Assembly: GCA_965214965.1 (NCBI GenBank)
Contig: OZ244030.1
Location: forward strand, 266,239-330,238
Length of the DNA stretch: 64,000 nucleotides
Origin: Mycoplasmatales bacterium
Lineage (GTDB): Bacteria > Bacillota_I > Bacilli_A > CBDATW01
Direction: 5' to 3'
Position 1 is the first letter of the stretch, and each line of letters begins with the position of its first letter. The position numbers and the translations under genes were made by a program. The notes under the pieces are model-generated. The model ran no database searches. It saw only the letters and a program-made list of their open reading frames with translations, and was not told where the DNA came from. Positions 2,534-56,937 of this stretch are shown in pieces.

Positions 2534-2845
2534 ATGAGAGAACTTGAAGAATATGAGTTAGAAAATATGTATGGAGGATCCATTTTATCAGGAGCTGCAA
2601 TAGGTATTGCAGTAGTTTTGGCTGCAGTGGCTGCTTACAGAATGGTCACATCAACCAAAGCTAAAATAAAGCTGCCTAATGGAACAGATATTTCCTTTGA
2701 AAACCCAAGAGAAAAATCTGCAAGCAAAAATTCACTTCAAACTAATAATAAGGCTCAGGAATCATCAAAAATAGTATTAAATGCATTGGATAATAAAGCC
2801 CAAAGTTTTTCTTCAACACCAGGCAATTTTTTAATAAAAATTTAG
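2534..2845 (+). CDS. 103-aa peptide precursor with an N-terminal double-glycine leader and a hydrophobic Gly/Ala-rich helix
   Basis: Strong RBS AAAGGAG 7 nt before the ATG. N-terminus MRELEEYELENMYGG followed by SILSGAAIGIAVVLAAVAAY and a polar Lys/Ser/Asn tail. Insulated by the greA terminator and the rplU promoter. Confidence 0.6.
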   Translation: MRELEEYELENMYGGSILSGAAIGIAVVLAAVAAYRMVTSTKAKIKLPNGTDISFENPREKSASKNSLQTNNKAQESSKIVLNALDNKAQSFSSTPGNFLIKI

Positions 2846-17177: not shown

Positions 17178-17390
17178 ATGAACTTTATTACAACGTTATT
17201 TATTGTATTAATTTCAGGGGTAATTGGCTTCTTTATTGGAGCTCAATATAGCAAAAAACAAACTGAAAAATATTTAAAAGAAAACCCACCAATTTCAGAA
17301 AAACAAATTAGAGCAATGTACCTTTCAATGGGTAGAAAACCATCAGAAGCTCAAATACAAGCAACTCTAAGAAATATGGGATTAAAATAA
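17178..17390 (+). CDS. UPF0154 (YneF-like) small membrane protein
   Basis: N-terminal TM helix, then KYLKENPPISEKQIRAMYLSMGRKPSEAQI, characteristic of UPF0154. Confidence 0.8.
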   Translation: MNFITTLFIVLISGVIGFFIGAQYSKKQTEKYLKENPPISEKQIRAMYLSMGRKPSEAQIQATLRNMGLK

Positions 17391-25238: not shown

Positions 25239-26108
25239 ATGATTACAAATGCAAAACAAATGGTTAAAGATGCTTTTGCTAGAGGATATGCTGTTCCTCA
25301 GTTTAACGTTAACAACTTAGAATGAGCAAAAACAATTTTAGAAACTTGTGAAGAACATAAGTCACCAGTTATTCTTGGTGTTTCAGCAGGTGCTGCTAAA
25401 TATATGGGGGGATATACTGTAGCCAAAGAAATGATAGGTGCATTAGATAAAGATTTAGGTATTACAGTTCCAGTCGCAATCCACATGGATCATGGACATG
25501 ATGATGATTGTGAAAAAGCGGTAGCAGCTGGTTTTACATCACTAATGTTTGATGGCTCACACCTGCCATTAGAAGAAAATCTAGAAATCACTAAAAAATG
25601 AGTAGCAATTTCTGCTGAAAAAGGTTTGTCGCTTGAAGCAGAAGTTGGTTCAATCGGTGGAGAAGAAGACGGAATTATTGGCACAGGAGAACTGGCATCA
25701 TCTGAACATTGTAAAATGATGCTTGATTTAGGAGTTGACTTCTTAGCAGCTGGAATCGGAAACATCCATGGACCATACCCAGAATCATGAGAATCACTAT
25801 CTTTTGAAACTTTAGAATCGCTTAAAGAAGGTACAGAAGGTAAAATGCCATTTGTTCTACATGGGGGATCAGGAATCCCAGCTGATCAAATAACTAAAGC
25901 AATTGAATTAGGAGTTGCTAAAATTAACGTTAACACAGAATTACAACTTGTAAATGCTTATGCACTAAAAAAATACTTTGATGCAAACAAACATGCTGAA
26001 GGTAAAGGTTTTGACCCAAGAAAAATCAATGCCGTTGGTATTGCTGCTATGAAAGAAGAGCTAGCTGCAAAAATCAAACTATTTGGTTCAGAAAATAAAG
26101 CTAAATAA
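25239..26108 (+). CDS. fba: class II fructose-bisphosphate aldolase
   Basis: Motifs HMDHG, GNIHG and LHGGSG. Three track ORFs in one frame via TGA (checked). Extended -10 TGATATAAT at 25184-25192. Confidence 0.93.
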
Positions 26109-26187
26109 TTTGCAATAATACTTAAGTATTGTTATAATTTATCAGCATTGAAAAATTATTAATAAAAAATACTAAAAGGAGATAAAT

Positions 26188-26394
26188 ATGGCAAAAGCAA
26201 ATCTGCATCCAAAATACCAAAAAACAAATGTAACATGCACATCATGTTCATTTTCATTTGAAACTGGTTCAACATTAAAAGAGTTAAAAGTTGATACATG
26301 TTCAAATTGCCACCCATTCTTTACTGGTGGACAAAGATCTCACTCACAAGATTCAAGAGTTGAGAAGTTCAAAGCTAAATACGGAATGAAGTAA
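26188..26394 (+). CDS. rpmE: 50S ribosomal protein L31 (Zn-ribbon type)
   Basis: LHPKY..., CTSC ... CSNCHPFFTG. Extended -10 TGTTATAAT at 26130-26138. Confidence 0.93.
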   Translation: MAKANLHPKYQKTNVTCTSCSFSFETGSTLKELKVDTCSNCHPFFTGGQRSHSQDSRVEKFKAKYGMK

Positions 26395-26428
26395 TTTTTG
26401 CTGCATTTACTTTTCAAAACAATAGTAT

Positions 26429-26455
26429 AAAAACCACCCGATGGTGGTTTTTATT
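26429..26455. terminator. bidirectional terminator between rpmE and the MATE gene
   Basis: AAACCACC-CGAT-GGTGGTTT flanked by A- and T-runs. Confidence 0.65.
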
Positions 26456-27788
26456 ATTTTTTAAATAATGCTAGGTGTTTGTATTTGTCTTTGTTTATTT
26501 GCTGAGAAACATATCATTTAGTAAATAATGCTCCGAACAAATCAGAAGTTGGTAAGGCAATTAGTAAAATACGTAAATCATTCAAGAGAGAAAAAAGAAT
26601 AACTATTGGAATAAAAATAATAACATTTCTTATTAAAGAAATAGTAACTGTTTGCTTTGCTAATCCTGTGCTTTGAAAAATTGTTCCTCAAATAATTGGG
26701 TGAGCCACAAATATAATACCCACACCAATGGTTCTTATAATATAGGTAGCATTACCATATGCTGAAACATTAAAAACTTTTAATAGTGTAGTTGGAAAGA
26801 TAATCATTAAAACAAACGCAATTAAGAAATATCTCTGGAGTATTTTGAATTTATACACAGAAATATCTCTTAATCTTTCGTAATTTTTAGAACCAAAGTT
26901 ATAACCAATCATAGGCCCGCCTGCAGCTGCGATCCCAAATACTGGAATTAAAATAGTTATTCACGCTGTTCTTGCAGCAGAATAAGCAATAATATCGTTT
27001 TTAGTTCCAATTTTGGTTAGAAAAAATGTAAAAACAAAAATTTTAATACTCAAAATTATGCTCTCTGTCATTGCGGGTATACCCATTTTAAATATTTTTT
27101 TAACATTGTTATATTTAATTTTATATTTAAAAATATTTAACAAAAATTCTTTTCTTACAAACAGCACATATATAAGTATTAGCAATAAGTTAACATACAT
27201 GGAAATTGTAGTTGCCCAAGCAGCTCCTGCAATTCCTCATTGCAAGTTTTTCATAAAAATAACATCTAGTAAAAGGTTTATAATTTGTGCTGCAAGTGTA
27301 AACTGCATAATAATTTTAGTATATCCTTTTGCTTGGAAAACACTTTCAAATAGATAGACAATAGATTGTGCGAAAACTCCAATTGCAAAAACTTTATAAT
27401 AATCTGAAGCAAGATTTGCAAGTTCTTTTGGCGCATTAAATGCCACCCCTATTTTTGGCCCTAAGTTATATGTCAAAAACATTAGAAAAATCGCTGCTAG
27501 TATCATTAGTAAATATGAATTTGAAAGAAGAGAATTCACTTCTTTATTTTCTTTTTTACCAAGCATGATAGAAAAATTAACTTTGGTTCCAACAGCTACA
27601 ATTGTTGAAATAGCAGCGATTAAGTTAGCACTTGGCCCAACATACTGCATTGCTCCCATGCCTTCTGGACCCACAAATCTTGAAATGAGAATTCTATCAA
27701 TCGTTATATAAGCAGACATAACTAAAAAAGTAAAAATGGAGGGCAATGCTAATTTTCACAAAGCTTTTTTATAAGGCATTTTTCCCAT
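26454..27788 (-). CDS. MATE-family multidrug/toxin efflux transporter
   Basis: About 12 hydrophobic segments. N-terminal LALPSIFTFLVMSAYITIDRILISRFVG is typical of MATE. Merged across TGA from track ORFs 26688-26912, 26961-27200 and 27237-27746. An alternative start lies at 27809. Confidence 0.8.
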
Positions 27789-27801
27789 TATGTAATCAGT
27801 T

Positions 27802-28590
27802 TTAATCATTTATAACTCTTTTTTCCAATCTTTGCATTTTATATTTAGCTATATGAACATATATTTGGTCAGGTCTTTGATCGTACAACATATTAGCTCA
27901 GGCACATCACATTAGATTTTGGAAATCATTTCACAAGTCGAGATCCCCTTCATTATATTTTTCATTTTTAAAATATTCATTTAAAAAAATTCTCTTGTAT
28001 TTTGTATCATATAGATCATTCTCATTTAAAAAACTTACAACATCAAAAATTGGATCATTCATACCGGCATATTCTCAATCTATTAAATATAGCTTATTAG
28101 GAGTAAAAAGAAAATTCCCAGGAGTTAAATCATTGTGGCAGAGAACTTTATCTTTTTCGTCACAATAAATTTTATTAATTTTATCTATCAAAAACATAAA
28201 TTTGTCATAATCATACATAGGATTAACTATATTATCCAGGTAATCCTTTATTACTTTTCTTGGTTCGAATGTGATATCTGTTTTTATTTTTTTATCATGT
28301 AATTTTTTAATTATATTTGCAATTTGCCTCACTTTAACTTCATTGATTGGATCATCTTCTAAAGTTTTAGCTTCTTTAATAAATTTAGCTATTTTAACTT
28401 CCTTATTAATTGTTTTAATTTCAACATCAAAATCTTTAACCAAACTGTGAAGTTTAACCTCGTTGTTAGCAACTAAATTAGAATATTTTTTAACAATATA
28501 ACCATTACTTGATAAGTAATTGTAATTTGTAATCCCTTTATTTAGTTTTTGAAAAGTTACATTTTCATCAAAGTATTTTTTAAATTCCAT
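27802..28590 (-). CDS. choline/ethanolamine-kinase-like phosphotransferase (LicA/APH fold)
   Basis: Brenner motif LCHNDLTPGNFLF plus IDWEYAGMNDPIFD. The track ORF extended through TGA to TAA 27802-27804. Confidence 0.75.
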
Positions 28591-28952
28591 AATATTTACC
28601 TACAAAATATTATAACAAAAGTGTTAGAATATAATTATAATAAAAGAGGTAATACGCAAAGTTTTTTGTTAACATCGAAGCTAAAATTTTTTATATCGGT
28701 TGATAGTATAACAAAAGATAATGCTGAGATTATCACTACCAGTAAAATTGAAAAAAACACGAAACCCTGAATAGGTGCCAAAAATAGTTCTTATCAAAAC
28801 CAATAGATTTATTATTAAAATAGATGAAAATCAAAATTAGAGTTGATTGATAGTAAGGTTTTGCAAATAAATTTAGCTAGATAAAAATACCCAAAACAGA
28901 AACAGTAGTAATTAGCACTATTTCAACTATAATATAGAAAAGGATTTACCAA

Positions 28953-29189
28953 ATGAAAACAATCACTAAAAAACTAACATTATTATTACAAACAGTTATA
29001 TCAATAACAACAGGAGTATTAGCTGCATTTTTTGCTTTATTAATTAAAATGCCTAACCAATTTAACATTTTTATCATTTCATCACTTTCTTGTTTTATAG
29101 CCATTTCATTCACTATTTGAAATATTAAAAGAACATTTAAAACTAATTTTTATCAATTCAATAGTAAAAACTTCTTCGATCAAGGTTAA
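28953..29189 (+). CDS. 78-aa two-helix membrane protein, unknown function
   Basis: RBS AAAAGGA. Hydrophobic stretches VISITTGVLAAFFALLI and IFIISSLSCFIAISFTIW. One TGA. Stops 4 nt before the next gene. Confidence 0.45.
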
Positions 29190-29193
29190 ATTT

Positions 29194-29601
29194 ATGAAAA
29201 AATATGTTTCTTTAGAACAAATATACAAAAAAATACGAAAAAGAGGCTACAAGGTTTCGAAAGCCAGAGCACAATTAATACAGATTTTATTAAAATCTGA
29301 TGAGTATTTAAGTATTAACAAAGTTGCAAAAAAATTAAAACATCCTAATGTTTCGTCACTTTACAACAATATTTGGTTTTTGGAAAAACTAAAAATTGTA
29401 GACATAATTTCTCACAACAATACTAAAATGTTCCAAATTCCATATGATCCAGATAATTTCTCATCCAATTTTACTGGTTATTATGTTACGAAAAATAATA
29501 AAATTAGATCATTTAATATTGATGAAGAACTCAAATCAATTCGAAATAAATTAAGTGATTTAAAAATCGAAAAAGTTAAAATAATTGTTTCTGAAAAATA
29601 A
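29194..29601 (+). CDS. Fur-family-like winged-helix regulator lacking the usual metal ligands
   Basis: YKVSKARAQLIQILL...SSLYNNIWFLEKLKIV resembles the Fur wHTH (xTxQRxxIL ... TVYRxLxxLxxxGLV). The C-terminal half has no Cys and lacks the HHH/CxxC clusters. Confidence 0.55.
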   Translation: MKKYVSLEQIYKKIRKRGYKVSKARAQLIQILLKSDEYLSINKVAKKLKHPNVSSLYNNIWFLEKLKIVDIISHNNTKMFQIPYDPDNFSSNFTGYYVTKNNKIRSFNIDEELKSIRNKLSDLKIEKVKIIVSEK

Positions 29602-29669
29602 AATATAGACAATTGCTTAATTTATTTATATAATAAACTAGCAAAATATAATAAAAGGTGGTGAAATTA

Positions 29670-29858
29670 ATGTCAGAAGTTATTGTAAAAGATGGTGAAA
29701 GTTTGGAACAAGCTCTTAAAAGGTTCCAAAGACTATCAGCTGGAAAGAAAAGACAATTAAGAGCTAGAAGAGAATATTTAAAACCAGGTGTAAAAGCTAA
29801 ACTAAAATCAAAAGAAGCTAGAAAAAAAGCTGCCAAAAGAAACAAAAGAAGACGTTAA
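29670..29858 (+). CDS. rpsU: 30S ribosomal protein S21
   Basis: MSEVIVKDGESLEQALKRFQR...REYLKPG is the canonical S21. RBS GGTGGTGA. Start at ATG 29670 inside the track ORF. Confidence 0.93.
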   Translation: MSEVIVKDGESLEQALKRFQRLSAGKKRQLRARREYLKPGVKAKLKSKEARKKAAKRNKRRR

Positions 29859-29941
29859 TTTAATTAATTTAAATTATTAAATAAATTATAAAAAAAGAAA
29901 AATTATAAAAAAACTATTCACACTATAGGAGGCATTAAATT

Positions 29942-30235
29942 ATGTACATTAACCTAAGGTACGGTGATAACGAAGCTATTATGAACTACATGGAAGCAGA
30001 AGAAGGAAAATTAAACCTGCTTTCAAATAAATATTCAGATAAAGTAGAAATCATCAAAGAAGACCAAAACAATACAGCAATCCTTATTAAAGATGGGGAA
30101 GAATTTGATGTTACAATTGAATGGGTTGAGTCAGAAGCAGATGTTCAAGCAATTTGAGATGCTTTTGAAGAAGAAGGAGTAAATTACTTTGCTTCTGCTG
30201 AAGATTTAGTCGGAATGGTCTTAACAATTAAATAA
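29942..30235 (+). CDS. 97-aa highly acidic hypothetical protein
   Basis: RBS TAGGAGG. The ORF continues through TGA 30155 to TAA 30233-30235. Rich in Glu/Asp. No recognisable motif. Confidence 0.55.
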
Positions 30236-30275
30236 AAGAGGTTTAAGCCTTTTTTTTATTTAAACCTCTTTTTAT
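30234..30275. terminator. bidirectional terminator between convergent genes
   Basis: Long stem AAAGAGGTTTAA ... TTTAAACCTCTTT around a T-rich loop. Confidence 0.55.
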
Positions 30276-30277
30276 TA

Positions 30278-30880
30278 TTAAAATTTATAGTTTTTCATTA
30301 ATTTTACATATCTACGCTTAAAGAATTGATTATAAGATTTAATTTGTTCTAATTTTAGCTTATTTTCTTTAATAAATAATTTAATTTTCAAGTAATGTGA
30401 TTCATTTCTGAAATCAGCTATCTGTACTAGTTCATATAATTCGAATATTTTTCTAGTTTCCGAGTTAATTGGAATTTTTGTTGGTTTAATCTCAATATTT
30501 CCATGTTTCTTAGCTCTTTTAACTAAATTTGAATAAATTACAAGTTTTTTTGGAAATTCATTCAAAAAACCATGTTTATTCCATAATCATTCTTGTGCAA
30601 CAAATCCGTTATCATTTTCACAATAAAATTTTATTACAGAACCCCAATTATTAAAATCAACTTGAATATATGATTCGTCATTTGTAAAAATTCCTCGTTC
30701 TACTTTTTTGATTTTATTTTCTTTTCACAATATATGCAAAATAACTGTTATGTAATTTAGAGATTTTTTCTTATTATAACTTTGGCTGAATAAAATCATA
30801 TTTTTAAGATAAATATCTTTTGCTGAAAATTTACCTTCAAAATTCAAAATAATTTTTGCAATTGTACTTTTCCTTATCAC
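30278..30880 (-). CDS. 200-aa hypothetical protein with an N-terminal AbiEi-like winged-helix
   Basis: Track ORF 30278-30565 extends upstream through two TGA codons to GTG 30880, with RBS GAGG 6 nt upstream. N-terminus IAKIILNFEGKFSAKDIY...LHILWKENKIKKVERGIF resembles wHTH domains ending in the RG-hydrophobic-aromatic motif. Confidence 0.6.
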
Positions 30881-30890
30881 TTTATACCTC

Positions 30891-30948
30891 TATACTACAA
30901 TATGTATTATATTATTATTTATAATAATATAATACTATATGTAGTATA
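30891..30948. repeat. 58-bp imperfect inverted repeat (28-nt arms, 24/28 complementary)
   Basis: TATACTACAATATGTATTATATTATTAT-TT-ATAATAATATAATACTATATGTAGTATA, located between the stop at 30964 and the start at 30880. Confidence 0.7.
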
Positions 30949-30963
30949 AAAGTCAAGTATTTT

Positions 30964-32466
30964 TTATTTTTTTTCTTTGAAAAATAAAAAAATACTAATG
31001 AATACTATTCCAGCGGCCAATCAAGAAAAAAAGGTTTTTTTAGATTTTATTTCATTTTTTAGCATATTTTTTACTAATATACTATTTGAGTTTTGATAAA
31101 AATTTGATTCCAAACCCTCTTTATAAATAGTAAAATTTTGCTTAAAAGCTTCTTTTTCTTTATTAATTTTTTCTGTTTTTTTAGTTTGTTTTTGTTTTTC
31201 TGCAGCAATGATTTCTTGTTGTTTTTGGAGTTCTTTTTCCTTTCTGAGATTTTGATTTATAATATTTTTATAAGAAATTTCAAAATTATAATTTTTTATG
31301 GTTTTTTGATCTTTCATGGTAATTGTTAAGGGTTGGATCTCGTTGTTTTGCCTTTTTTGACCTCAATCCACCTTAATTTCTTTAAAATTATTAGAAAAAA
31401 CATTAAATCCAAAGTAATTGTTAGATTTTAATATGTTTCTCACTATTAAATTATCATCTGTTTCATCTACAGACAGTTTTTTATTAGAAAATTCAGCATA
31501 TTTTATAAAACCATTGGCAATATAGGGTTTAATATAAATACCTTTACCAAAACTTCAATTTTTGTAAACAGCCCTTGGATTATGAATTTTTTTAATTTTG
31601 TAATTCCCTGAAGTTCTTAAATTATCAATTTCAATTTTATCACCAATTTTATAAGGTATTCTAATAAATTGATCTTCTATATAGGGTTTTTTATTACTGA
31701 TAAGATCAATATATCCTGTAGCGTCAATAAATTGATTGTTTAGAAAAAACATTTTCCCTAATTGAAAATCACGTGTCAAATCAACTTCTAAAGCCTCTTT
31801 GTTTAAATACATTGCTCATTCTGTAGATTTGCTTTCATTTTTATCGCAAAAAAGCTTTGTATTAGGCACATATATTGGTTTTCAAATACTTTTTAGCTCA
31901 TTTTGTCCTTTAGTTGGTATTTTGAGCTCTATAAGCCAAGAATAACCATTAGAAAAATGAAAATTTGTTTCTTTAACCTTACAATAGTAATTATTAGTAT
32001 TTTGATATACACCATCTAGATAGGTATCCTGTTTATATTTTTTTAAAAATATAATTTCATCACCTTCACTAATTGTGTTTTTAATTTGGTTTCAGGGGTC
32101 ATTTTGATACACTCCATTTACAATGGCATACATTTCATAGTCTCTTTGACCAGCGTTGTTTCAGTTAGTTTGAGTGGGATCAAAGTGTGTAAAATTTTTT
32201 AACTCTTCTCCATTAAATTCCATCCCTTCTACTAAGGCTTCATTAATAGAATCAACATTATTAACATGCAAATATGTTTGTTTCCAATCAAATTGCTGCT
32301 CACTACTTTCTGGAACATCACTAGGATTAGGCAATTGATAAAATCTATCTTCAGAAAAAACTAAAGGTTTATCATAAATTATTCCTTTATTAAAATTATT
32401 ATTAAAAAATATAAATGATGCATTAAGCATAATTATTAAAGCATTTATTATTTTCAAAATTTTCAT
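30964..32466 (-). CDS. 500-aa surface protein with an N-terminal signal/anchor, a Lys/Glu/Gln coiled-coil stalk and a C-terminal TM anchor
   Basis: Track ORFs 32161-32466, 31555-31812 and 31021-31317 are one frame. I translated the whole interval and found only TGA interruptions. N-terminus MKILKIINALIIMLNASFIFF. C-terminus WLAAGIVFISIFLFFKEKK. Confidence 0.7.
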
Positions 32467-51945: not shown

Positions 51946-51972
51946 ATAAAAAAACGGCTTATTCATAGCCGT
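51946..51972 (-). terminator. terminator after era
   Basis: Minus strand reads ACGGCT-ATGAATA-AGCCGT followed by TTTTTTT. Overlaps the era stop. Confidence 0.65.
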
Positions 51973-52843
51973 AAATTTTTATAATATCTTTTCCAGACTT
52001 TCACTTTTTTTTAACTTTAACAAATAACTTTAAATAAACATCTTTTTTAAGATGGAATTTAATTTTGTATCTGGAATTTTTTGAAATAGCAGAAATCATT
52101 TTACCTGCCCTACCAACAATGATTTTTTTATGAGAATTTCTTTCAACAAAAATTATGCCAGAAATAATTCACAGATCTTTTTTGCGATCAAATTTCATAG
52201 TTTCAATCATTGTAGCCACACCATGAGGGACTTCTTGCTCTGTTTTATGCAAGACCTGCTCTCTTATAAACTCAGCTAACAGGAATTCAGTTTCTTGGTC
52301 AACAATAGTATCATTATCAAAATACTGTGGCCCTTCAGGAATCATTTTAAGAACTTGTTCAATTAATACATCTATATTTTTACCTGTTTCAGCTGAAATT
52401 GGAATAACTTGATCTACTCCTTGTATTGAATTGAATTCGGTAAGTTTTTCTAACAACACTTCAGTCTTTAACAAATCAATTTTATTTACAACAAGAAATA
52501 CAGGCGTTTTTTTATTTTTAACAATTTCTAAAATTCTTTGGTCTCCTGCACCAAATTTTGAATTAGCTTCCACCATGAAAAGAATTAATTCACAATCTTT
52601 TATTGATTCCATCGCAGAAGAATTCATCATTTCTCCAAACTGCTCTTTTGGTTTGTGAATTCCTGGAGTATCAACAAAAACTAGTTGGTGGTCATCACCA
52701 TTAATTATCCCTCTAATGTTATTTCTTGTAGTTTGCACTTTACTCGATGTAATAGACACCTTAGAACCAATAATTTTATTTAAAAATGTTGATTTTCCTA
52801 CATTGGATCTACCGACTATAGAAATAAAACCCGACTTAAACAT
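51959..52843 (-). CDS. era: GTPase Era
   Basis: GRSNVGKST, DTPG and NKID motifs plus a C-terminal KH domain, reached through TGA 52169. Confidence 0.93.
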
Positions 52844-53231
52844 CTAGGTTTTCCTTTCCAAATGCAAATGGTAATAGTTCTGAAATAGTTATTTTAAATT
52901 CTTTTGAACCATTTGTAATGATTAAAGGAATATTTCCAGGAATGATTTCTGTTAGAACTTGCCTGCATATTCCACAAGGTGAGCAAAGAGCTTTCTCTTT
53001 ATTGTAAACAGTTACTGATTTTATATCTTTGGGTTTTAAATCACTAGAAAGTAATGTGCTTATAGCACTTCTTTCTGCACAAGTGGTAGCACCATATGAA
53101 GCATTTTCAATATTAGCTCCTTGTACAAAATATCCAGTATTCATTTCGATTGCACAACCTACTTGAAAGTTTGAATATGGTGCATAAGCTTTTAAAGAAG
53201 CCTCTTTAGCTTTTTCAATATGTTTTTTCAT
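52836..53231 (-). CDS. cdd: cytidine deaminase
   Basis: Zinc motifs CAERSA and PCGICRQ. Confidence 0.92.
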   Translation of the reverse strand: MKKHIEKAKEASLKAYAPYSNFQVGCAIEMNTGYFVQGANIENASYGATTCAERSAISTLLSSDLKPKDIKSVTVYNKEKALCSPCGICRQVLTEIIPGNIPLIITNGSKEFKITISELLPFAFGKENLDV

Positions 53232-53232
53232 T

Positions 53233-53694
53233 CTATCTCCTAATTCCTAGTTCATCCAAAATAAGTTTTTGCAAACCAAACATCTCTTCTTCTTCTTCTT
53301 TTGTTTTATGTACATATCCAAGAATATGAAGTAGTCCGTGCAAGAACAGAAAGCACATTTCTCTTCTTTGGCTATGATTATAATCTTTTGCTTGAGATTT
53401 CATTTTGTCCACAGAAATTATTATTTCTCCTAAACACAATGATTCTATATTAATTTTTTCAGTTCCTTCATCAAAAGCAAATGAAATTACATCAGTCGGT
53501 TTATTTTTAAATCTATATTCTTTGTTAATTTTATTAGAAATATTATTGTCAACAAAAACTACTGATATCTCTCTTGTATTTTGGATGTTTAATTCTTTAT
53601 ACAAACATTGCAAAATTGCACTAAAATCTGATTTAAATCTTGTGTAAGATCAATTCTTGTACAAATTTTTATACTGTATTGTATTTTTCTTCAT
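53233..53694 (-). CDS. ybeY: rRNA maturation endoribonuclease YbeY
   Basis: HGLLHILGYVH metal motif. Extended through TGA to ATG 53694. Confidence 0.9.
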
Positions 53695-53701
53695 AGAAAA
53701 A

Positions 53702-55489
53702 TTATAACACAATGTTTAATTGATTAATTTTAAGTTCAACATCATGGTCAACAATTAATATGGTTTTATCACGGTATGTTTTTAAAATATATTTATATAT
53801 TTTGTTTCTTACACCTAATACAACAGAAGACATAGCTTCATCCAGAACCAAAGCTTCAAAGTTTGTTTCTAAAGCTAACAAAACATTTCTTATTTGTCTT
53901 TGGCCATCAGAAACTTCTTTTTGACTTAAATTATATTTTTTAAGATTTATAAGATCAAAACTTTTATCTTTAGGTTTTTTAATTACATTTGTGGTAGAAG
54001 AAATATAAATTTTTCCTGGGTTTGTTTTTGAAAATAATCCACAAAATATTTTCAAATAAGTCGATTTACCAGATCCATTGTCTCCTGTTAATTGAAAATG
54101 ACCTTTAATACCTTCTAATTTATTAGTGTATTCATTTTTTCCGTCATAACTAATAGTGTTGTTATTTTCCTCAAAATATACAACAAAATCTATAAATTTA
54201 TTGTAAGAATCAATTTCAAGTTTGTAATTAAAGATATAACCTCATATTTTTACTAAATTTGTATATAGCATTGTTGCGATTGTAATAAGATAAATCCCAC
54301 TAGATATAGATATTTCCTTATGAATTATTCATATGAAAATATATGCAGATACTATCATGTTAAAAATATATGAAACAAATCCAAAACTTAATAAAACCCA
54401 GTTATTAAATCTCCCTTTTTTATAATTCAAACTAATATTACGGTTTAAATTAGCACTCATAATCTTTTCATATGAAGATTTTTCAAAACCTGAAGAAGTC
54501 TCTATGTTGTCAAATAATTGTAAAAAATTATTTGCAATAGAAATTTCGTTTGTCCTAACTTTTTCATTAGTTTTGAATGTTTTATCTCTAAACATAACTG
54601 TTAAAATACTTGAGAAAACAAATAATGATATTACCGGTATTATCACAATTTTATATTCTGAAACTAATATTATGATCGCTGCAATAGATAGCATAATTGC
54701 ATGTGCAAAATCTGTTTTAGATATTAAATTAAACTGTATAAAATTAACACCTTGCTCCAAAGCGTTGAAAACATGCATTTTAGTGAAATGGCATTTTAAT
54801 TTTGAGTTTTGATCAAGTAAGTAATTAAAAAAATATTGATAAATATCCGAAATTTTCTTCCACAATCTTTTATTTATAAAAATATTTTTTAAATAAGTCA
54901 CCACTAAAGTTATAAGACCAATGATAGCAAATATTAAAACTATTTCTTTTAATATAAAAATATTCTTACTTTCTACAGCAAATAATGCATATTTAAAGTA
55001 AAAACTAATTGCAAATATTAAAGATACCTCTAATATGTTCAATCCCATTAAAGAAATAAATTCCTTCTTATTGCTTTTAAATGGGAAGTTATTTTTTCAT
55101 TCAAATGGTTCCGTATACTCTATGTCAATTAATATAATTTCAGTATCAAGCTTATAATTCTTGATCTTACCTTTTGCAGGGTCAAAACATACAAAGTTAT
55201 TACCAATTCTTTTAATAACTATATAATGTAATCCATAATTTGCTTGAACCATTAAAATAAATAATTTATTTTCAGGTATTTCATTTTTTTGGGCATAGTA
55301 TATTTTGCTTTTCCAACCTAATTTATCTAACCCTGATTTAACTGCTTTTAGTGAGACCCCGTTATTATTAAAGTAAAAATAATCTTTAATTATTTTATCT
55401 GGAATATATTTTTTATATTTTTGATAATAAAAATATTGAAAAGCTCCAATAAAACATTCGTTCTTCATCTTTTTAATTGCTGATAACAT
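53702..55489 (-). CDS. peptidase-C39-domain ABC exporter (PCAT-like), 595 aa
   Basis: Track ORFs 55097-55489, 54329-55048 and 53702-54055 are one frame joined by TGA (junctions checked). N-terminal Cys12 (NECFIGAF), His88 (GLHYIVI) and Asp103 (CFDP). Multiple TM segments. NBD with GDNGSGKST, VSDGQRQ, LVLDEA and VDHD. Confidence 0.8.
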
Positions 55490-55674
55490 AATTACTTCCT
55501 CCTATTTCGTATATAGGCATAAAAACAAAATTTATTAAAAAAAAAGATCTTACTATCTTATTTTTTATTAATATCTTTATATTTAATATAATTAAATATC
55601 CACAAGAAGAATCTTAAGTGTTCAAAAATAACATTAGCAAAAGGCCAAATTCAAAACCATGCAGCAAATCACCT

Positions 55675-56283
55675 TATTTTTATGCTATCTTTCTTTGTAA
55701 TTTTAGAATTGCTAGATAAATAATTAACAATTTTTTGATGAATATATGTAGTTGTTATTGCTCCAAAAAAGAAAACTCAAAGAAACATTACAAAAACAAT
55801 CCCCAAGTATTCAACTTTTTGAAACTCTTTCAAACCAATATATCAAAATAACATAACATAAACCATTGCAAACGCCATGGAGTTTGATATAAATCTTAAG
55901 CCTAAAACGAAATTAGGTATAACTCATTTCTTATCTTTTTTTCAAAGTGTATATTCTGCTCATCAAAATGCTTCCAAAATAGAATACATATTATATCTAT
56001 CTAGTAAATAATACGGAATAATTTGTTTGTGCTTTTTTGTAATTGGAATATAAGGAGTTATAACAAAAAATGCAGGTTTAATTTTTTTTGTAATAATTTT
56101 ATTAGATTTGTTAATGTCTACAACAAGTTCTTGGGAACTAATAGACTTTATTCTAGTTATCAACATAATTAAAAATGAAAAAATAGTAAAAGTAATGCAG
56201 AAAATAATACCTATTTGGTATTCTTTGGGTAATTCAATAAAATTAATTTTTAAAATATTATTTATCATTTTCATAGTTTTCAT
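55675..56283 (-). CDS. 202-aa multi-pass membrane protein, unknown function
   Basis: Track ORF 55963-56283 continues through six TGA codons to TAA 55675-55677 (hand translation). It has 3-4 hydrophobic segments and a Trp-rich region (WWAEYTLWKKDKKW). Confidence 0.6.
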
Positions 56284-56289
56284 ATTATA

Positions 56290-56937
56290 TTAGAGTTTTG
56301 ATAGCTTTTCAACAATTATTGAACATAAATGTTGAGAGGCTTCCTTTTTGTTTTGCTGATACTGCTCAATATTAACATGATTCTTTACGTTGTCTGAAAT
56401 TACTCTTAAAACATCTCATTTAATATTTAGTTTTGAAGCTACTTGACCAAAAGAAGCAGATTCCATATCTACGGCAACAGCCATAGGGAAATCTTTTTTA
56501 ATTTTTTCTATATCACATGATGTTACAAATTTATCTCCAGAGACAATTTGCCCATGTATTATGTCATTAAATATATTTAAATTTGGAATAAAAGATAAAT
56601 CACAACCTGGTACTTGCCCAATGTTATAACCAAATTCTTTTAGGTTAAAATCATGGTGTATTACTTCGCTTGCTAATAAAATATCTAAGGGTTTTATTTT
56701 TTCTGACAATGATCCTGCCACGCCGATATTGATTGCATTATTTATATTAAATTTTAAATGTAAATAAGTAATAGCATAAGCAATATTTGTTTTACCAATA
56801 CCTGAAACCATAATAAAAATTTCTATATCGTTAATTTTAGAAAATCAAATTTTTTCTACTAACAACTCAGCACTAAGTATGTTGATTAGTGGTTTTATTT
56901 CTAATTCCATAGCTGATATTATAGCGATTTTTTTCAT
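56290..56937 (-). CDS. mtnN: 5'-methylthioadenosine/S-adenosylhomocysteine nucleosidase
   Basis: MKKIAIISAMELE..., SGIGKTNIA and AVDMESASF motifs. Confidence 0.88.

What the first reader, a model, noticed from the sequence alone, without database searches (positions are those of the whole stretch)
53702..55489. C39-peptidase ABC exporter (PCAT-like) heading the ybeY-cdd-era operon
Seen in the sequence:
- Three track ORFs are one frame interrupted only by TGA, giving a 595-aa protein.
- Residues 1 to about 125 follow the papain-like C39 pattern: Cys12 in NECFIGAF, His88 in GLHYIVI and Asp103 in CFDP (His-to-Asp spacing 15). The catalytic triad is therefore retained, unlike in inactive C39-like domains.
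- The oxyanion Gln expected 6 residues before the Cys is a Lys.
- A multi-helix TMD and an unusually compact NBD follow: Walker A GDNGSGKST, degenerate signature VSDGQRQ, Walker B LVLDEA and H-loop VDHD.
- The gene ends 7 nt before ybeY. It has its own upstream hairpin-terminator and promoter region.

Established knowledge: exporters of this architecture process and export GG-leader peptides.

Inference: this is the exporter for the 2534-2845 peptide, or for other peptides outside the window. It is embedded in a housekeeping operon rather than in a bacteriocin island.
Basis: partly seen in the sequence, partly recalled or inferred. Interest (0 to 1): 0.75.

Follow-up and report, generated by a model that had tools for sequence, protein, structure and literature searches.

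The report
Shrunken peptide-cleaving exporter in a mycoplasma
This gene encodes a real but unusually shrunken peptide-cleaving ABC exporter that mycoplasma-like bacteria keep just upstream of the housekeeping gene ybeY, and this genome also holds a credible, unproven candidate for the cargo peptide that has not been found for this transporter in mycoplasmas.

Summary
The protein-level observation holds. Window 53702-55489 (-) is one 595-aa ORF, with TGA read as Trp three times. It has a C39 peptidase domain that passes Pfam's threshold and a six-helix exporter membrane domain. Its ATPase domain is only ~156 aa, against ~241 aa in canonical relatives. The AlphaFold model (pLDDT 83) matches PCAT1 best. 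Cys12, His88 and Asp103 sit in the catalytic columns and are invariant in all relatives; the oxyanion Gln is Lys.

This is not an oddity of one genome. The nearest family is the annotated Mycoplasma "Mbov_0121" C39-ABC family (M. genitalium MG_390 and JCVI-syn3A 0401 look like counterparts). Every mollicute relative I could place lies immediately upstream of ybeY. The closest full-size relatives in low-GC, standard-code (probably Bacillota) contigs carry class IIb double-glycine peptides right beside the transporter; mollicutes have lost those.

The window's clade is a rare, further reduced variant. It lacks the Q-loop, most of the helical subdomain and the D-loop Asp.

The 2534-2845 ORF looks like a genuine double-glycine peptide gene, but it is a singleton 51 kb away, so the substrate link is only plausible. 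The "own terminator and promoter" claim is not supported.

Verdict: a new variant of a known kind, of moderate interest.

The parts
53702..55489 (-). 595-aa peptidase-containing ABC transporter (reduced PCAT), read with TGA = Trp
   Evidence: Table-4 translation; Pfam C39 and ABC_tran; AlphaFold pLDDT 83; best fold matches are PCAT1 at TM 0.72-0.77
55100..55489 (-). C39 papain-like peptidase domain (aa 1-130). Cys12 = 55454-55456, His88 = 55226-55228, Asp103 = 55181-55183, Lys6 in place of the oxyanion Gln = 55472-55474
   Evidence: Pfam PF03412 at 37 bits against a cutoff of 22; catalytic columns invariant; His and Asp aligned to the solved GG-protease domains 6mpz and 7n87; codon coordinates
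54170..55069 (-). Transmembrane domain, six long helices (aa 141-440), exporter-type fold
   Evidence: AlphaFold secondary structure; Foldseek matches to PCAT1, HlyB, TM287/288 and McjD; no Pfam ABC_membrane hit at sequence level
53702..54169 (-). Minimal nucleotide-binding domain (aa 441-595, ~156 aa). Walker A Lys475, signature Ser527/Gly529, Walker B Asp550-Glu551 and H-loop His582 are kept. The Q-loop, most of the helical subdomain, the D-loop Asp and the C-terminal tail are lost
   Evidence: Inter-motif residue counts against 9 Mbov_0121-family and 37 canonical proteins; alignment
55498..55503 (-). AGGAGG ribosome-binding site, 8 nt before the ATG
   Evidence: Read directly
55558..56283 (-). 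241-aa polytopic membrane protein with no family hit. It sits immediately upstream of the ABC gene in the four clade loci examined and is probably co-transcribed
   Evidence: Synteny; alignment at 17-33% identity; no Pfam or NCBIfam hit; best promoter-like site at 56312-56284
53233..53694 (-). ybeY (rRNA maturation RNase), ATG 7 nt after the ABC stop codon
   Evidence: TIGR00043 at 147 bits; junction sequence
52836..53231 (-). cdd (cytidine deaminase)
   Evidence: Table-4 ORF; the orthologous genes in L001, L002, L004 and L005 hit dCMP_cyt_deam
51959..52843 (-). era (GTPase), followed by a terminator-like hairpin at 51972-51954
   Evidence: Table-4 ORF; terminator scan; orthologues hit MMR_HSR1 and KH_2
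2534..2845 (+). 103-aa candidate substrate. Double-glycine leader MRELEEYELENMYGG (L-12, E-8, L-7, M-4, GG), then a GxxxG-containing hydrophobic helix and a ~60-aa polar tail
   Evidence: Only full-score GG leader in the window, against 0.1 expected per shuffled window; TIGR03949 class IIb bacteriocin model at 20.4 bits against a cutoff of 21.5; in-frame coding score of 0.30 equals that of real genes; own RBS; no homologues

Best explanation
The gene encodes a strongly reduced member of the mollicute lineage of peptidase-containing ABC transporters (PCATs).

Shown:
- It has the PCAT architecture: a cytoplasmic C39 cysteine-protease domain with an intact Cys12/His88/Asp103 triad, a six-helix exporter membrane domain, and an ATP-binding domain.
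- The ATP-binding domain keeps the Walker A, signature, Walker B Glu and H-loop residues.
- The lineage sits immediately upstream of ybeY in every mollicute relative examined.
- The closest full-size relatives, in low-GC standard-code contigs, have class IIb double-glycine peptides next to the transporter.

Inferred mechanism:
- A homodimer docks a double-glycine leader on the C39 domain.
- The domain cleaves after Gly-Gly.
- ATP binding and hydrolysis then move the mature peptide through the membrane domain.

Inferred transcription and cargo:
- The gene is probably transcribed with the upstream 241-aa membrane protein and with ybeY-cdd-era.
- In this genome the best candidate cargo is the 103-aa peptide at 2534-2845.
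- Its mature part would be released or left anchored in the membrane.
For: - Architecture: Pfam C39 and ABC_tran both pass their thresholds. The AlphaFold model has pLDDT 83 and pTM 0.73. The top 12 PDB matches are all PCAT1, peptidase domain included, at TM 0.69-0.77.
- Catalytic and ATP-site residues are invariant in relatives down to 25% identity, and all three domains are 54-60% identical between P0001 and P0002, which argues for purifying selection.
- Synteny with ybeY holds in L001, L002/L003, L004, L005, L008 (Metamycoplasma buccale) and L009.
- Adjacent GG peptides occur in the full-size relatives L006, L012 and L013, and they hit TIGR03949 at 15-27 bits.
- The window's peptide hits the same model at 20.4 bits, has the full leader consensus, and codes like a gene.
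- Literature: MG_390 is annotated as putative peptide secretion, and it can be deleted (PMC4446450, PMC6105099).
Against: - The peptide is a singleton with no homologue in 5.8 billion proteins.
- It lies 51 kb from the transporter. Its 88-aa mature part, with a long polar tail, is unlike typical class II bacteriocins.
- A chance GG-leader ORF is expected at about 0.1 per 64 kb, so roughly one per genome by my extrapolation.
- No GG-leader ORFs were found in the fetched mollicute loci. Published work reports none in mycoplasmas that carry the transporter (PMC6609329).
- The oxyanion Gln is Lys, and the Gly after the Cys is Phe.
- The NBD lacks the Q-loop, most of the helical subdomain and the D-loop Asp, so normal ATP-driven coupling is not assured.
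- No accessory protein of the ComB/LcnD type is evident.
- One relative (L002/L003) has a frameshifted copy.
Confidence: 0.55

Rival explanations
1. The transporter serves a conserved mollicute function unrelated to bacteriocin-like peptides, and the 2534 peptide is incidental. One example would be processing or secretion of another protein class, or a role tied to recombination and gene transfer as hinted in M. genitalium.
For: - The lineage and its position next to ybeY persist across very reduced genomes, while the adjacent GG peptides seen in the full-size low-GC standard-code relatives are gone.
- MG_390 and MG_389 belong to the sigma-20 recombination regulon, and deleting MG_390 lowers recombination-dependent transformation ten-fold (PMC4446450).
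- syn3A keeps 0401 with no GG peptide known (PMC6609329).
- The window's peptide has no homologues in relatives.
Against: - No sigma-20-type promoter occurs in the window.
- Deleting MG_390 does not affect sigma-20 activation (PMC6105099).
- No alternative substrate is known.
- The invariant triad and PCAT1-like fold fit leader cleavage best.
Confidence: 0.25
2. It is a decaying relic. The truncated ATPase no longer drives transport, and the protein is either non-functional or acts only as a membrane-tethered cysteine protease. It would be kept mainly because it lies inside an essential transcription unit.
For: - The NBD has lost about 85 residues, including the Q-loop, most of the helical subdomain and the D-loop Asp.
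- The oxyanion Gln is lost.
- One relative has a frameshifted copy.
- The orthologues in M. genitalium and syn3A are dispensable.
- NBD pLDDT is lower, at 59-89.
Against: - Intact ORFs of conserved length occur in five lineages. An intact 595-aa version of the frameshifted copy also exists.
- Walker A Lys, signature Ser and Gly, Walker B Asp-Glu and H-loop His are invariant at 25% overall identity.
- The NBD is as conserved as the C39 domain between P0001 and P0002, at 59% against 60%.
Confidence: 0.15
3. It imports a lipoyl-lysine or lipoyl-peptide and transfers the lipoyl group to PdhC through the Cys protease domain. This was tentatively assumed for JCVI-syn3A 0401.
For: Proposed as a modelling placeholder in PMC6609329. 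It rests only on the covalent-catalysis chemistry of the C39 domain and the absence of lipoyl transferases in syn3A.
Against: - There is no experimental support.
- The fold is that of an exporter, and the best structural matches are peptide exporters.
- The closest full-size relatives have GG peptides next to the gene.
Confidence: 0.03

Closest known systems
Mbov_0121 family peptidase domain-containing ABC transporters of Mycoplasma (NCBIfam NF045998), e.g. Metamycoplasma buccale WP_412031633.1. M. genitalium MG_390, M. pneumoniae MPN571 and JCVI-syn3A 0401 appear to be the same kind; I did not compare their sequences here.
   Same: - It is the best NCBIfam hit (E 2.7e-37).
- Same domain order and the same invariant triad.
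- Same position immediately upstream of ybeY-era.
- The Q-loop Gln is already absent and the D-loop Asp is already variable in that family.
- No GG-leader ORF was found in the fetched flanks of either.
   Different: - It scores 128 bits against the family cutoff of 500 and shares only 18-21% identity.
- It is ~80 residues shorter, with ~66 of them missing from the NBD, ~13 from the C39 domain and ~4 from the membrane domain.
- Gln-6 is replaced by Lys, and Cys-Gly by Cys-Phe.
- It has a conserved ~240-aa upstream membrane protein instead of the small downstream single-TM protein seen in L009.
PCAT1 of Clostridium (Acetivibrio) thermocellum (PDB 4RY2, 6V9Z, 7T54, 9AZL)
   Same: It is the best structural match over the whole chain, at TM 0.72-0.77. 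It has a C39 triad, a six-helix exporter domain and an ABC ATPase.
   Different: - Only 14-16% identity.
- PCAT1 has the oxyanion Gln, a full ~240-aa NBD with Q-loop and D-loop, and a cognate substrate (CtA) that was used in the structures.
ComA, LagD, SunT and LahT-type bacteriocin or pheromone exporters of Firmicutes, and the unnamed full-size relatives in loci L006, L012 and L013
   Same: - The C39 profile aligns to the LahT150 protease domain (6mpz, E 3e-4).
- The full-size relatives are top hits of the mollicute profile.
- L006 lies upstream of rpsU...ybeY-dgkA-era and L013 lies beside rpsU. L012 lies elsewhere.
   Different: Those systems carry one or two GG-leader peptides, and usually an accessory protein, right next to the transporter. 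Here nothing of the kind is adjacent.
C39-like domain (CLD) ABC transporters such as HlyB
   Same: An N-terminal papain-like domain fused to an ABC exporter. HlyB is a lower-ranked structural match.
   Different: CLDs have lost the catalytic Cys and bind substrate without cleaving it (established knowledge). Here the Cys is retained in every relative.

Membership tests
Peptidase C39 (Pfam PF03412) | Profile match above the gathering score | tested here: met
   32.3 bits for the full protein and 36.8 bits for the domain alone, against a cutoff of 22
Peptidase C39 (active bacteriocin-processing type) | Catalytic Cys, His and Asp in the conserved columns | tested here: met
   Cys12, His88 and Asp103 align with the invariant C, H and D of 50 relatives. 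His and Asp align to 6mpz and 7n87. In the model, Cys sits at the N-terminus of a helix, and His and Asp sit on adjacent strands.
Peptidase C39 (active bacteriocin-processing type) | Oxyanion-hole Gln six residues before the Cys | tested here: not met
   Lys6 here. The position is K, K, K in three clade members, R in fragment P0011, Q in P0005, and Q in all 46 other sequences.
Peptidase C39 (active bacteriocin-processing type) | Cys and His side chains juxtaposed in 3D | not testable with these tools
   Model coordinates are not exposed. Only the fold-level match to PCAT1 is available.
PCAT (peptidase-containing ABC transporter) | Six-helix exporter-type membrane domain after the peptidase domain | tested here: met
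   Six long helices spanning residues 141-440, and the whole chain matches PCAT1. At sequence level Pfam ABC_membrane is not detected.
PCAT (peptidase-containing ABC transporter) | Complete ABC ATPase: Walker A, Q-loop, signature, Walker B, D-loop and H-loop | tested here: inconclusive
   Walker A, signature Ser and Gly, Walker B Asp-Glu and H-loop His are present and invariant. The Q-loop segment, most of the helical subdomain and the D-loop Asp are absent. The NBD is ~156 aa against ~241 aa.
PCAT (peptidase-containing ABC transporter) | Cognate double-glycine-leader substrate gene | tested here: inconclusive
   None is adjacent. One credible candidate lies 51 kb away at 2534-2845, but it has no homologues. 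The rest of the genome was not available.
PCAT (peptidase-containing ABC transporter) | Leader cleavage and ATP-dependent export activity | not testable with these tools
   Requires biochemistry.
NCBIfam NF045998, Mbov_0121 family (equivalog) | Score at or above the curated cutoff of 500 bits | tested here: not met
   128.4 bits, E 2.7e-37; it is the best hit but far below the cutoff.
NCBIfam NF045998, Mbov_0121 family (equivalog) | Shared genomic position (my criterion, not NCBI's) | tested here: met
   Family member P0008 (named by NCBI) and P0007 both lie upstream of ybeY-era, as the target does.
C39-like domain (CLD) transporters, HlyB type | Catalytic Cys replaced, so the domain is inactive | tested here: not met
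   The Cys is retained in the target and in all relatives.
Class IIb bacteriocin, lactobin A/cerein 7B family (TIGR03949), for the 2534 peptide | Score at or above the cutoff of 21.5 bits | tested here: not met
   20.4 bits, E 3.3e-4. Peptides encoded beside the full-size relatives score 15.2, 19.1 and 26.8 bits; a fourth did not hit the model.

The most novel reading that the evidence does not exclude
The orphan mollicute C39-ABC lineage descends from a class IIb bacteriocin locus of a low-GC Firmicute-like ancestor that lay beside the rpsU...ybeY-era cluster. In this rare, further reduced clade it still works as a leader-cleaving exporter using a ~156-aa ATPase that has no Q-loop, almost no helical subdomain and no D-loop Asp. 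The 2534-2845 peptide is its cargo. If so, this would be the first cognate double-glycine substrate identified for the transporter that mycoplasmas, including the JCVI minimal cell, retain without a known substrate. It would also be an unusually small working ABC motor.
Probability: 0.3. Interest if true: 0.65.

Novelty: new variant of a known kind. Interest (0 to 1): 0.5.

Why it matters
C39-domain ABC transporters have been annotated in mycoplasma genomes for a long time, and one is retained in the JCVI-syn3A minimal cell. No substrate has been found for them: Breuer et al. 2019 say so explicitly, cite Dirix et al. 2004, and fill the gap with a speculative lipoate-import role.

Three results here make that question more tractable.

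1. The gene's position immediately upstream of ybeY is conserved across distant mollicutes. A close full-size relative in a spore-former contig sits just upstream of the same rpsU...ybeY-era cluster. This points to vertical descent from a bacteriocin locus.
2. The full-size relatives still carry class IIb GG peptides. That indicates what kind of cargo to look for.
3. This genome has a specific, testable candidate peptide.

Separately, an ATPase domain cut to ~156 residues with all nucleotide-contacting motifs preserved is a natural experiment on how little of an ABC motor is needed.

None of this overturns current understanding, and the key functional links remain inferred.

Tried and rejected
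- Pseudogene reading: rejected. The three 'stops' are all TGA in a genome that uses TGA throughout its genes, and the frame is conserved in relatives.
- Inactive C39-like domain: rejected, because the Cys is retained everywhere.
- Own terminator and promoter in the 68-nt gap: not supported.
- Sigma-20-type promoter (TTGTCA-N18/19-ATTWAT and TTGGCR-N18/19-ATTYAT): none in the window.
- Homologues of the peptide: none.
- BLASTP of the window peptide against the L012 peptide: no alignment. The resemblance holds only at profile and leader-consensus level.
- Further clade members: one species representative in GTDB genomes and none in JGI metagenomes. The exhaustive HMM search found only four representatives with E < 1e-30.
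- Exact look-up of the window's own protein on contigs: not on record.
- Rfam on the whole window: no hits.
- Family searches on the 241-aa neighbour and on the 53-aa Cys-rich ORF of L002: nothing significant.
- Literature searches for JCVISYN3A_0401, MMSYN1_0401, and sunT with mycoplasma: nothing useful.
- GG-leader scans of the mollicute loci L001-L005, L008 and L009: no candidates near the transporter.
Full report
**Organism and reading frame.**
The window is 24-35% G+C and its genes are interrupted only by TGA, so it comes from a mollicute that reads TGA as Trp. Under table 4, 53702-55489 on the minus strand is a single 595-aa ORF, with TGA at codons 131, 387 and 416. An AGGAGG site lies 8 nt before the ATG. 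The exact protein exists in public collections on a 538.5-kb contig, unnamed. The only GTDB species representative with a relative is an uncultured 'Mycoplasmatales bacterium' MAG.

**Checking the observation.**
- Pfam places residues 22-111 in Peptidase_C39 above the gathering score, and detects ABC_tran. It does not detect ABC_membrane.
- The Pfam match does not reach the Cys, so I aligned the N-terminal domains of the target, its relatives and canonical C39-ABC proteins. Cys12, His88 and Asp103 fall in the invariant C, H and D columns. They are conserved in all 13 mollicute sequences, and across the 37 canonical ones except for a single Asp-to-Asn.
- A profile of the domain aligns His88 and Asp103 to the catalytic His and Asp of the solved double-glycine protease domains 6mpz and 7n87.
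- The oxyanion Gln six residues before the Cys is Lys in this protein. It is Lys or Arg in its close relatives, Gln in the most divergent clade member (P0005), and Gln in all others. The Gly after the Cys is Phe throughout the clade.

**Structure.**
An AlphaFold2 model built on a 51-sequence alignment is confident (mean pLDDT 83.3, pTM 0.73). It shows the papain-like domain, six long membrane helices (residues 141-440) and a small alpha/beta domain. Its twelve best PDB matches are all PCAT1 in various states, aligned over the entire chain at TM 0.69-0.77. HlyB, TM287/288, McjD and ComA follow. Model coordinates are not exposed, so I could not measure the Cys-His distance.

**The compact ATPase.**
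I counted residues between conserved motifs. In each row the three numbers are the target clade, the Mbov_0121 family and canonical relatives (medians).
- End of TM6 to Walker A Lys: 35 / 52 / 56.
- Walker A to signature Ser: 51 (37 in P0005) / 96 / 99.
- H-loop to C-terminus: 14 / 19 / 31.

The signature-to-Walker-B and Walker-B-to-H-loop spacings are unchanged. The domain is therefore ~156 aa instead of ~241. It lacks the first strand, the Q-loop segment, most of the helical subdomain, the D-loop Asp and the C-terminal tail. Walker A Lys475, Ser527, Gly529, Asp550, Glu551 and His582 are nevertheless invariant. Between the window protein and its 56%-identical relative, the NBD is as conserved as the peptidase domain (59% against 60%). 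That argues against decay.

**Transcription-unit claims.**
- The stop codon lies 7 nt before the ybeY ATG. ybeY is confirmed by TIGR00043 at 147 bits.
- cdd and era follow, and a terminator-like hairpin overlaps the end of era.
- The 'own hairpin-terminator' upstream is an A-U-only stem followed by U9. It folds no better than shuffles (z = -1.1).
- No promoter-like site lies in the 68-nt gap. The best one (TTGAAA-17-TATAAT) sits immediately before the upstream 241-aa gene.

So the ABC gene probably does not head the unit.

**What family it belongs to.**
- The best NCBIfam hit is NF045998, the 'Mbov_0121 family peptidase domain-containing ABC transporter'. The E-value is 2.7e-37, but the score is 128 bits against a cutoff of 500.
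- An exhaustive HMMER search of 1.84 billion representatives found only four with E < 1e-30. Scores then drop to ~50 bits for a set of ~670-aa proteins. NCBI names one of these as an Mbov_0121-family protein of Metamycoplasma buccale.
- The target therefore belongs to a small, divergent, shortened sister clade of an already annotated Mycoplasma family. The clade was seen in five assemblies and is absent from JGI metagenomes.

**Conserved position.**
In every mollicute relative whose context I could fetch, the gene lies immediately upstream of ybeY.
- L001: pfs, 238-aa gene, ABC, ybeY, cdd, era.
- L002/L003: the same arrangement, with a frameshifted copy.
- L004 (29% identity): 213-aa gene, ABC, ybeY, cdd, era, recO, glyS, dnaG.
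- L005 (25% identity): ABC, ybeY, dgkA, cdd, era, recO, glyS, dnaG, rpoD.
- L008 (M. buccale, complete genome): ABC, ybeY, era.
- L009: rpsU, ABC, 122-aa gene, ybeY, dgkA, era.

An intact 595-aa version of the frameshifted gene exists in another assembly.

A full-size 679-aa relative lies on a standard-code contig that also encodes sporulation genes (L006). It sits between spoIIIAH and rpsU-yabP-yqfD-ybeY-dgkA-era-recO. Another full-size relative is next to rpsU (L013). A third (L012) is elsewhere. Embedding in the housekeeping cluster is thus an old, conserved feature of the lineage, not a peculiarity of this genome.

**Where the substrates are in relatives.**
The full-size relatives carry textbook double-glycine peptides right after the transporter.
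- L006 has two uncalled ORFs, MKILEKNELEKVKGG|VLGS... and MSNTELKEIYGG|AFNL....
- L012 has two, ...KELMNVEGG|GFSAAIAAGIGAG...RPLKCR and ...KELMNIEGG|AGFSAT....
- L013 has one.

Three of the four I scanned hit the class IIb lactobin A/cerein 7B model TIGR03949, at 15-27 bits. Each locus also has a ~135-aa single-TM protein after the transporter, in the position held by the 122-aa gene of L009. No GG-leader ORF was found in the fetched mollicute loci.

**The candidate peptide in the window.**
- ORF 2534-2845 begins MRELEEYELENMYGG. It matches the leader consensus at -12, -8, -7, -4, -2 and -1.
- A GxxxG-containing hydrophobic helix and a ~60-aa polar tail follow.
- It is the only full-score hit in the window, against 0.1 expected per shuffled window.
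- It has its own Shine-Dalgarno sequence.
- It scores 20.4 bits on TIGR03949 (cutoff 21.5), within the range of the peptides encoded beside the full-size relatives.
- Its in-frame codon log-likelihood is 0.30 per codon. That equals the mean of real genes (0.30 +/- 0.08) and exceeds all 51 shadow ORFs, whose maximum is 0.17.

Against it: no homologue exists in 5.8 billion proteins, BLASTP finds no pairwise similarity to the relatives' peptides, it lies 51 kb away, and its mature part is atypically long. I rate it a real GG-leader gene at roughly 70%, and the cargo of this transporter at roughly 40-50%.

**Literature.**
- Breuer et al. 2019 (PMC6609329) state that JCVI-syn3A gene 0401 is a C39-domain 'sublancin transporter' homologue with no double-glycine peptide in the genome. 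They say the same holds for other mycoplasmas (citing Dirix 2004). They tentatively model it as a lipoyl-peptide importer and list it as removable.
- Torres-Puig et al. 2015 (PMC4446450) show that M. genitalium MG_390 ('ABC transporter, protein/peptide secretion (putative)') and MG_389 are driven by a sigma-20 promoter. They also show that delta-MG_390 is viable, with ten-fold lower recombination-dependent transformation.
- The 2018 follow-up (PMC6105099) lists MG_390 as sunT and finds that its deletion does not affect sigma-20 activation.
- That MG_388 and MG_387 are ybeY and era is from my memory, not tested here.
- No sigma-20-type promoter occurs in the window.

**Conclusion.**
The protein is a PCAT by architecture and by its catalytic and ATP-site residues. 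It is a reduced variant of a known mollicute family whose substrate is an acknowledged gap. The most likely mechanism is leader cleavage after Gly-Gly coupled to export, with the 2534 peptide as the best available cargo. The cleavage, the export, the competence of the minimal ATPase and the peptide link are all inferred, not shown.

The main rival is a conserved but different mollicute function. A lesser one is a decaying relic. I rate the finding as a new variant of a known kind and of moderate interest.

Noticed in passing
window 55558-56283 (-); L001 7234-7950; L002 5035-5772; L004 7305-7946: A ~213-245-aa polytopic membrane protein with no Pfam or NCBIfam match sits immediately upstream of the reduced ABC gene in the four clade loci examined (17-33% identity). 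It may be a clade-specific partner, for example an accessory or immunity-like protein.
   Followed up: partly
L006 10095-10241 and 10238-10393; L007 6490-6788: Two overlapping double-glycine-leader bacteriocin-like ORFs, not called by the source annotation, lie between a full-size C39-ABC gene and rpsU on a standard-code contig that also encodes sporulation genes. A strong hairpin terminator follows them.
   Followed up: yes
L012 9503-9819; L013 5599-5763: Class IIb-type GG-leader peptides (one above the TIGR03949 cutoff) and a ~135-aa single-TM protein follow the full-size transporters. The small single-TM protein holds the position of the 122-aa gene between the ABC gene and ybeY in L009.
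   Followed up: partly
window about 26000-32000: Gene orientation switches from the + strand to the - strand, and GC skew changes sign from positive to negative around 26-30 kb, beside an AT-rich stretch (GC 0.24). This is the pattern expected where replication forks converge, so the window probably spans the replication terminus.
   Followed up: no
L002 5848-7288: One relative has two extra genes inserted between the ~245-aa membrane protein and the ABC gene: a 389-aa lipoprotein-like protein and a 53-aa Cys-rich ORF with no GG motif. Its ABC gene is split by a frameshift near codon 240, whereas an intact 595-aa version (P0271) exists in another assembly.
   Followed up: partly
L005 (NCBI GCA_040777325.1, contig JBEVUR010328521.1): The most divergent clade member (553 aa, with the oxyanion Gln retained and an even shorter NBD) comes from an assembly with more than 328,000 contigs. 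This may be a mollicute symbiont or contaminant inside a eukaryotic host genome project.
   Followed up: no
window 56284-56312 (-): A near-consensus TTGAAA-17-TATAAT promoter-like site ends directly at the annotated ATG of the 241-aa gene. This implies either a leaderless transcript or a start at one of the downstream in-frame ATGs (Met4 or Met6).
   Followed up: no
window 17178-17390 (+): A 70-aa small membrane-protein ORF scored 4 of 5 in the first GG-leader scan. It has GA rather than GG and a hydrophobic N-terminus, so I did not treat it as a substrate candidate.
   Followed up: partly
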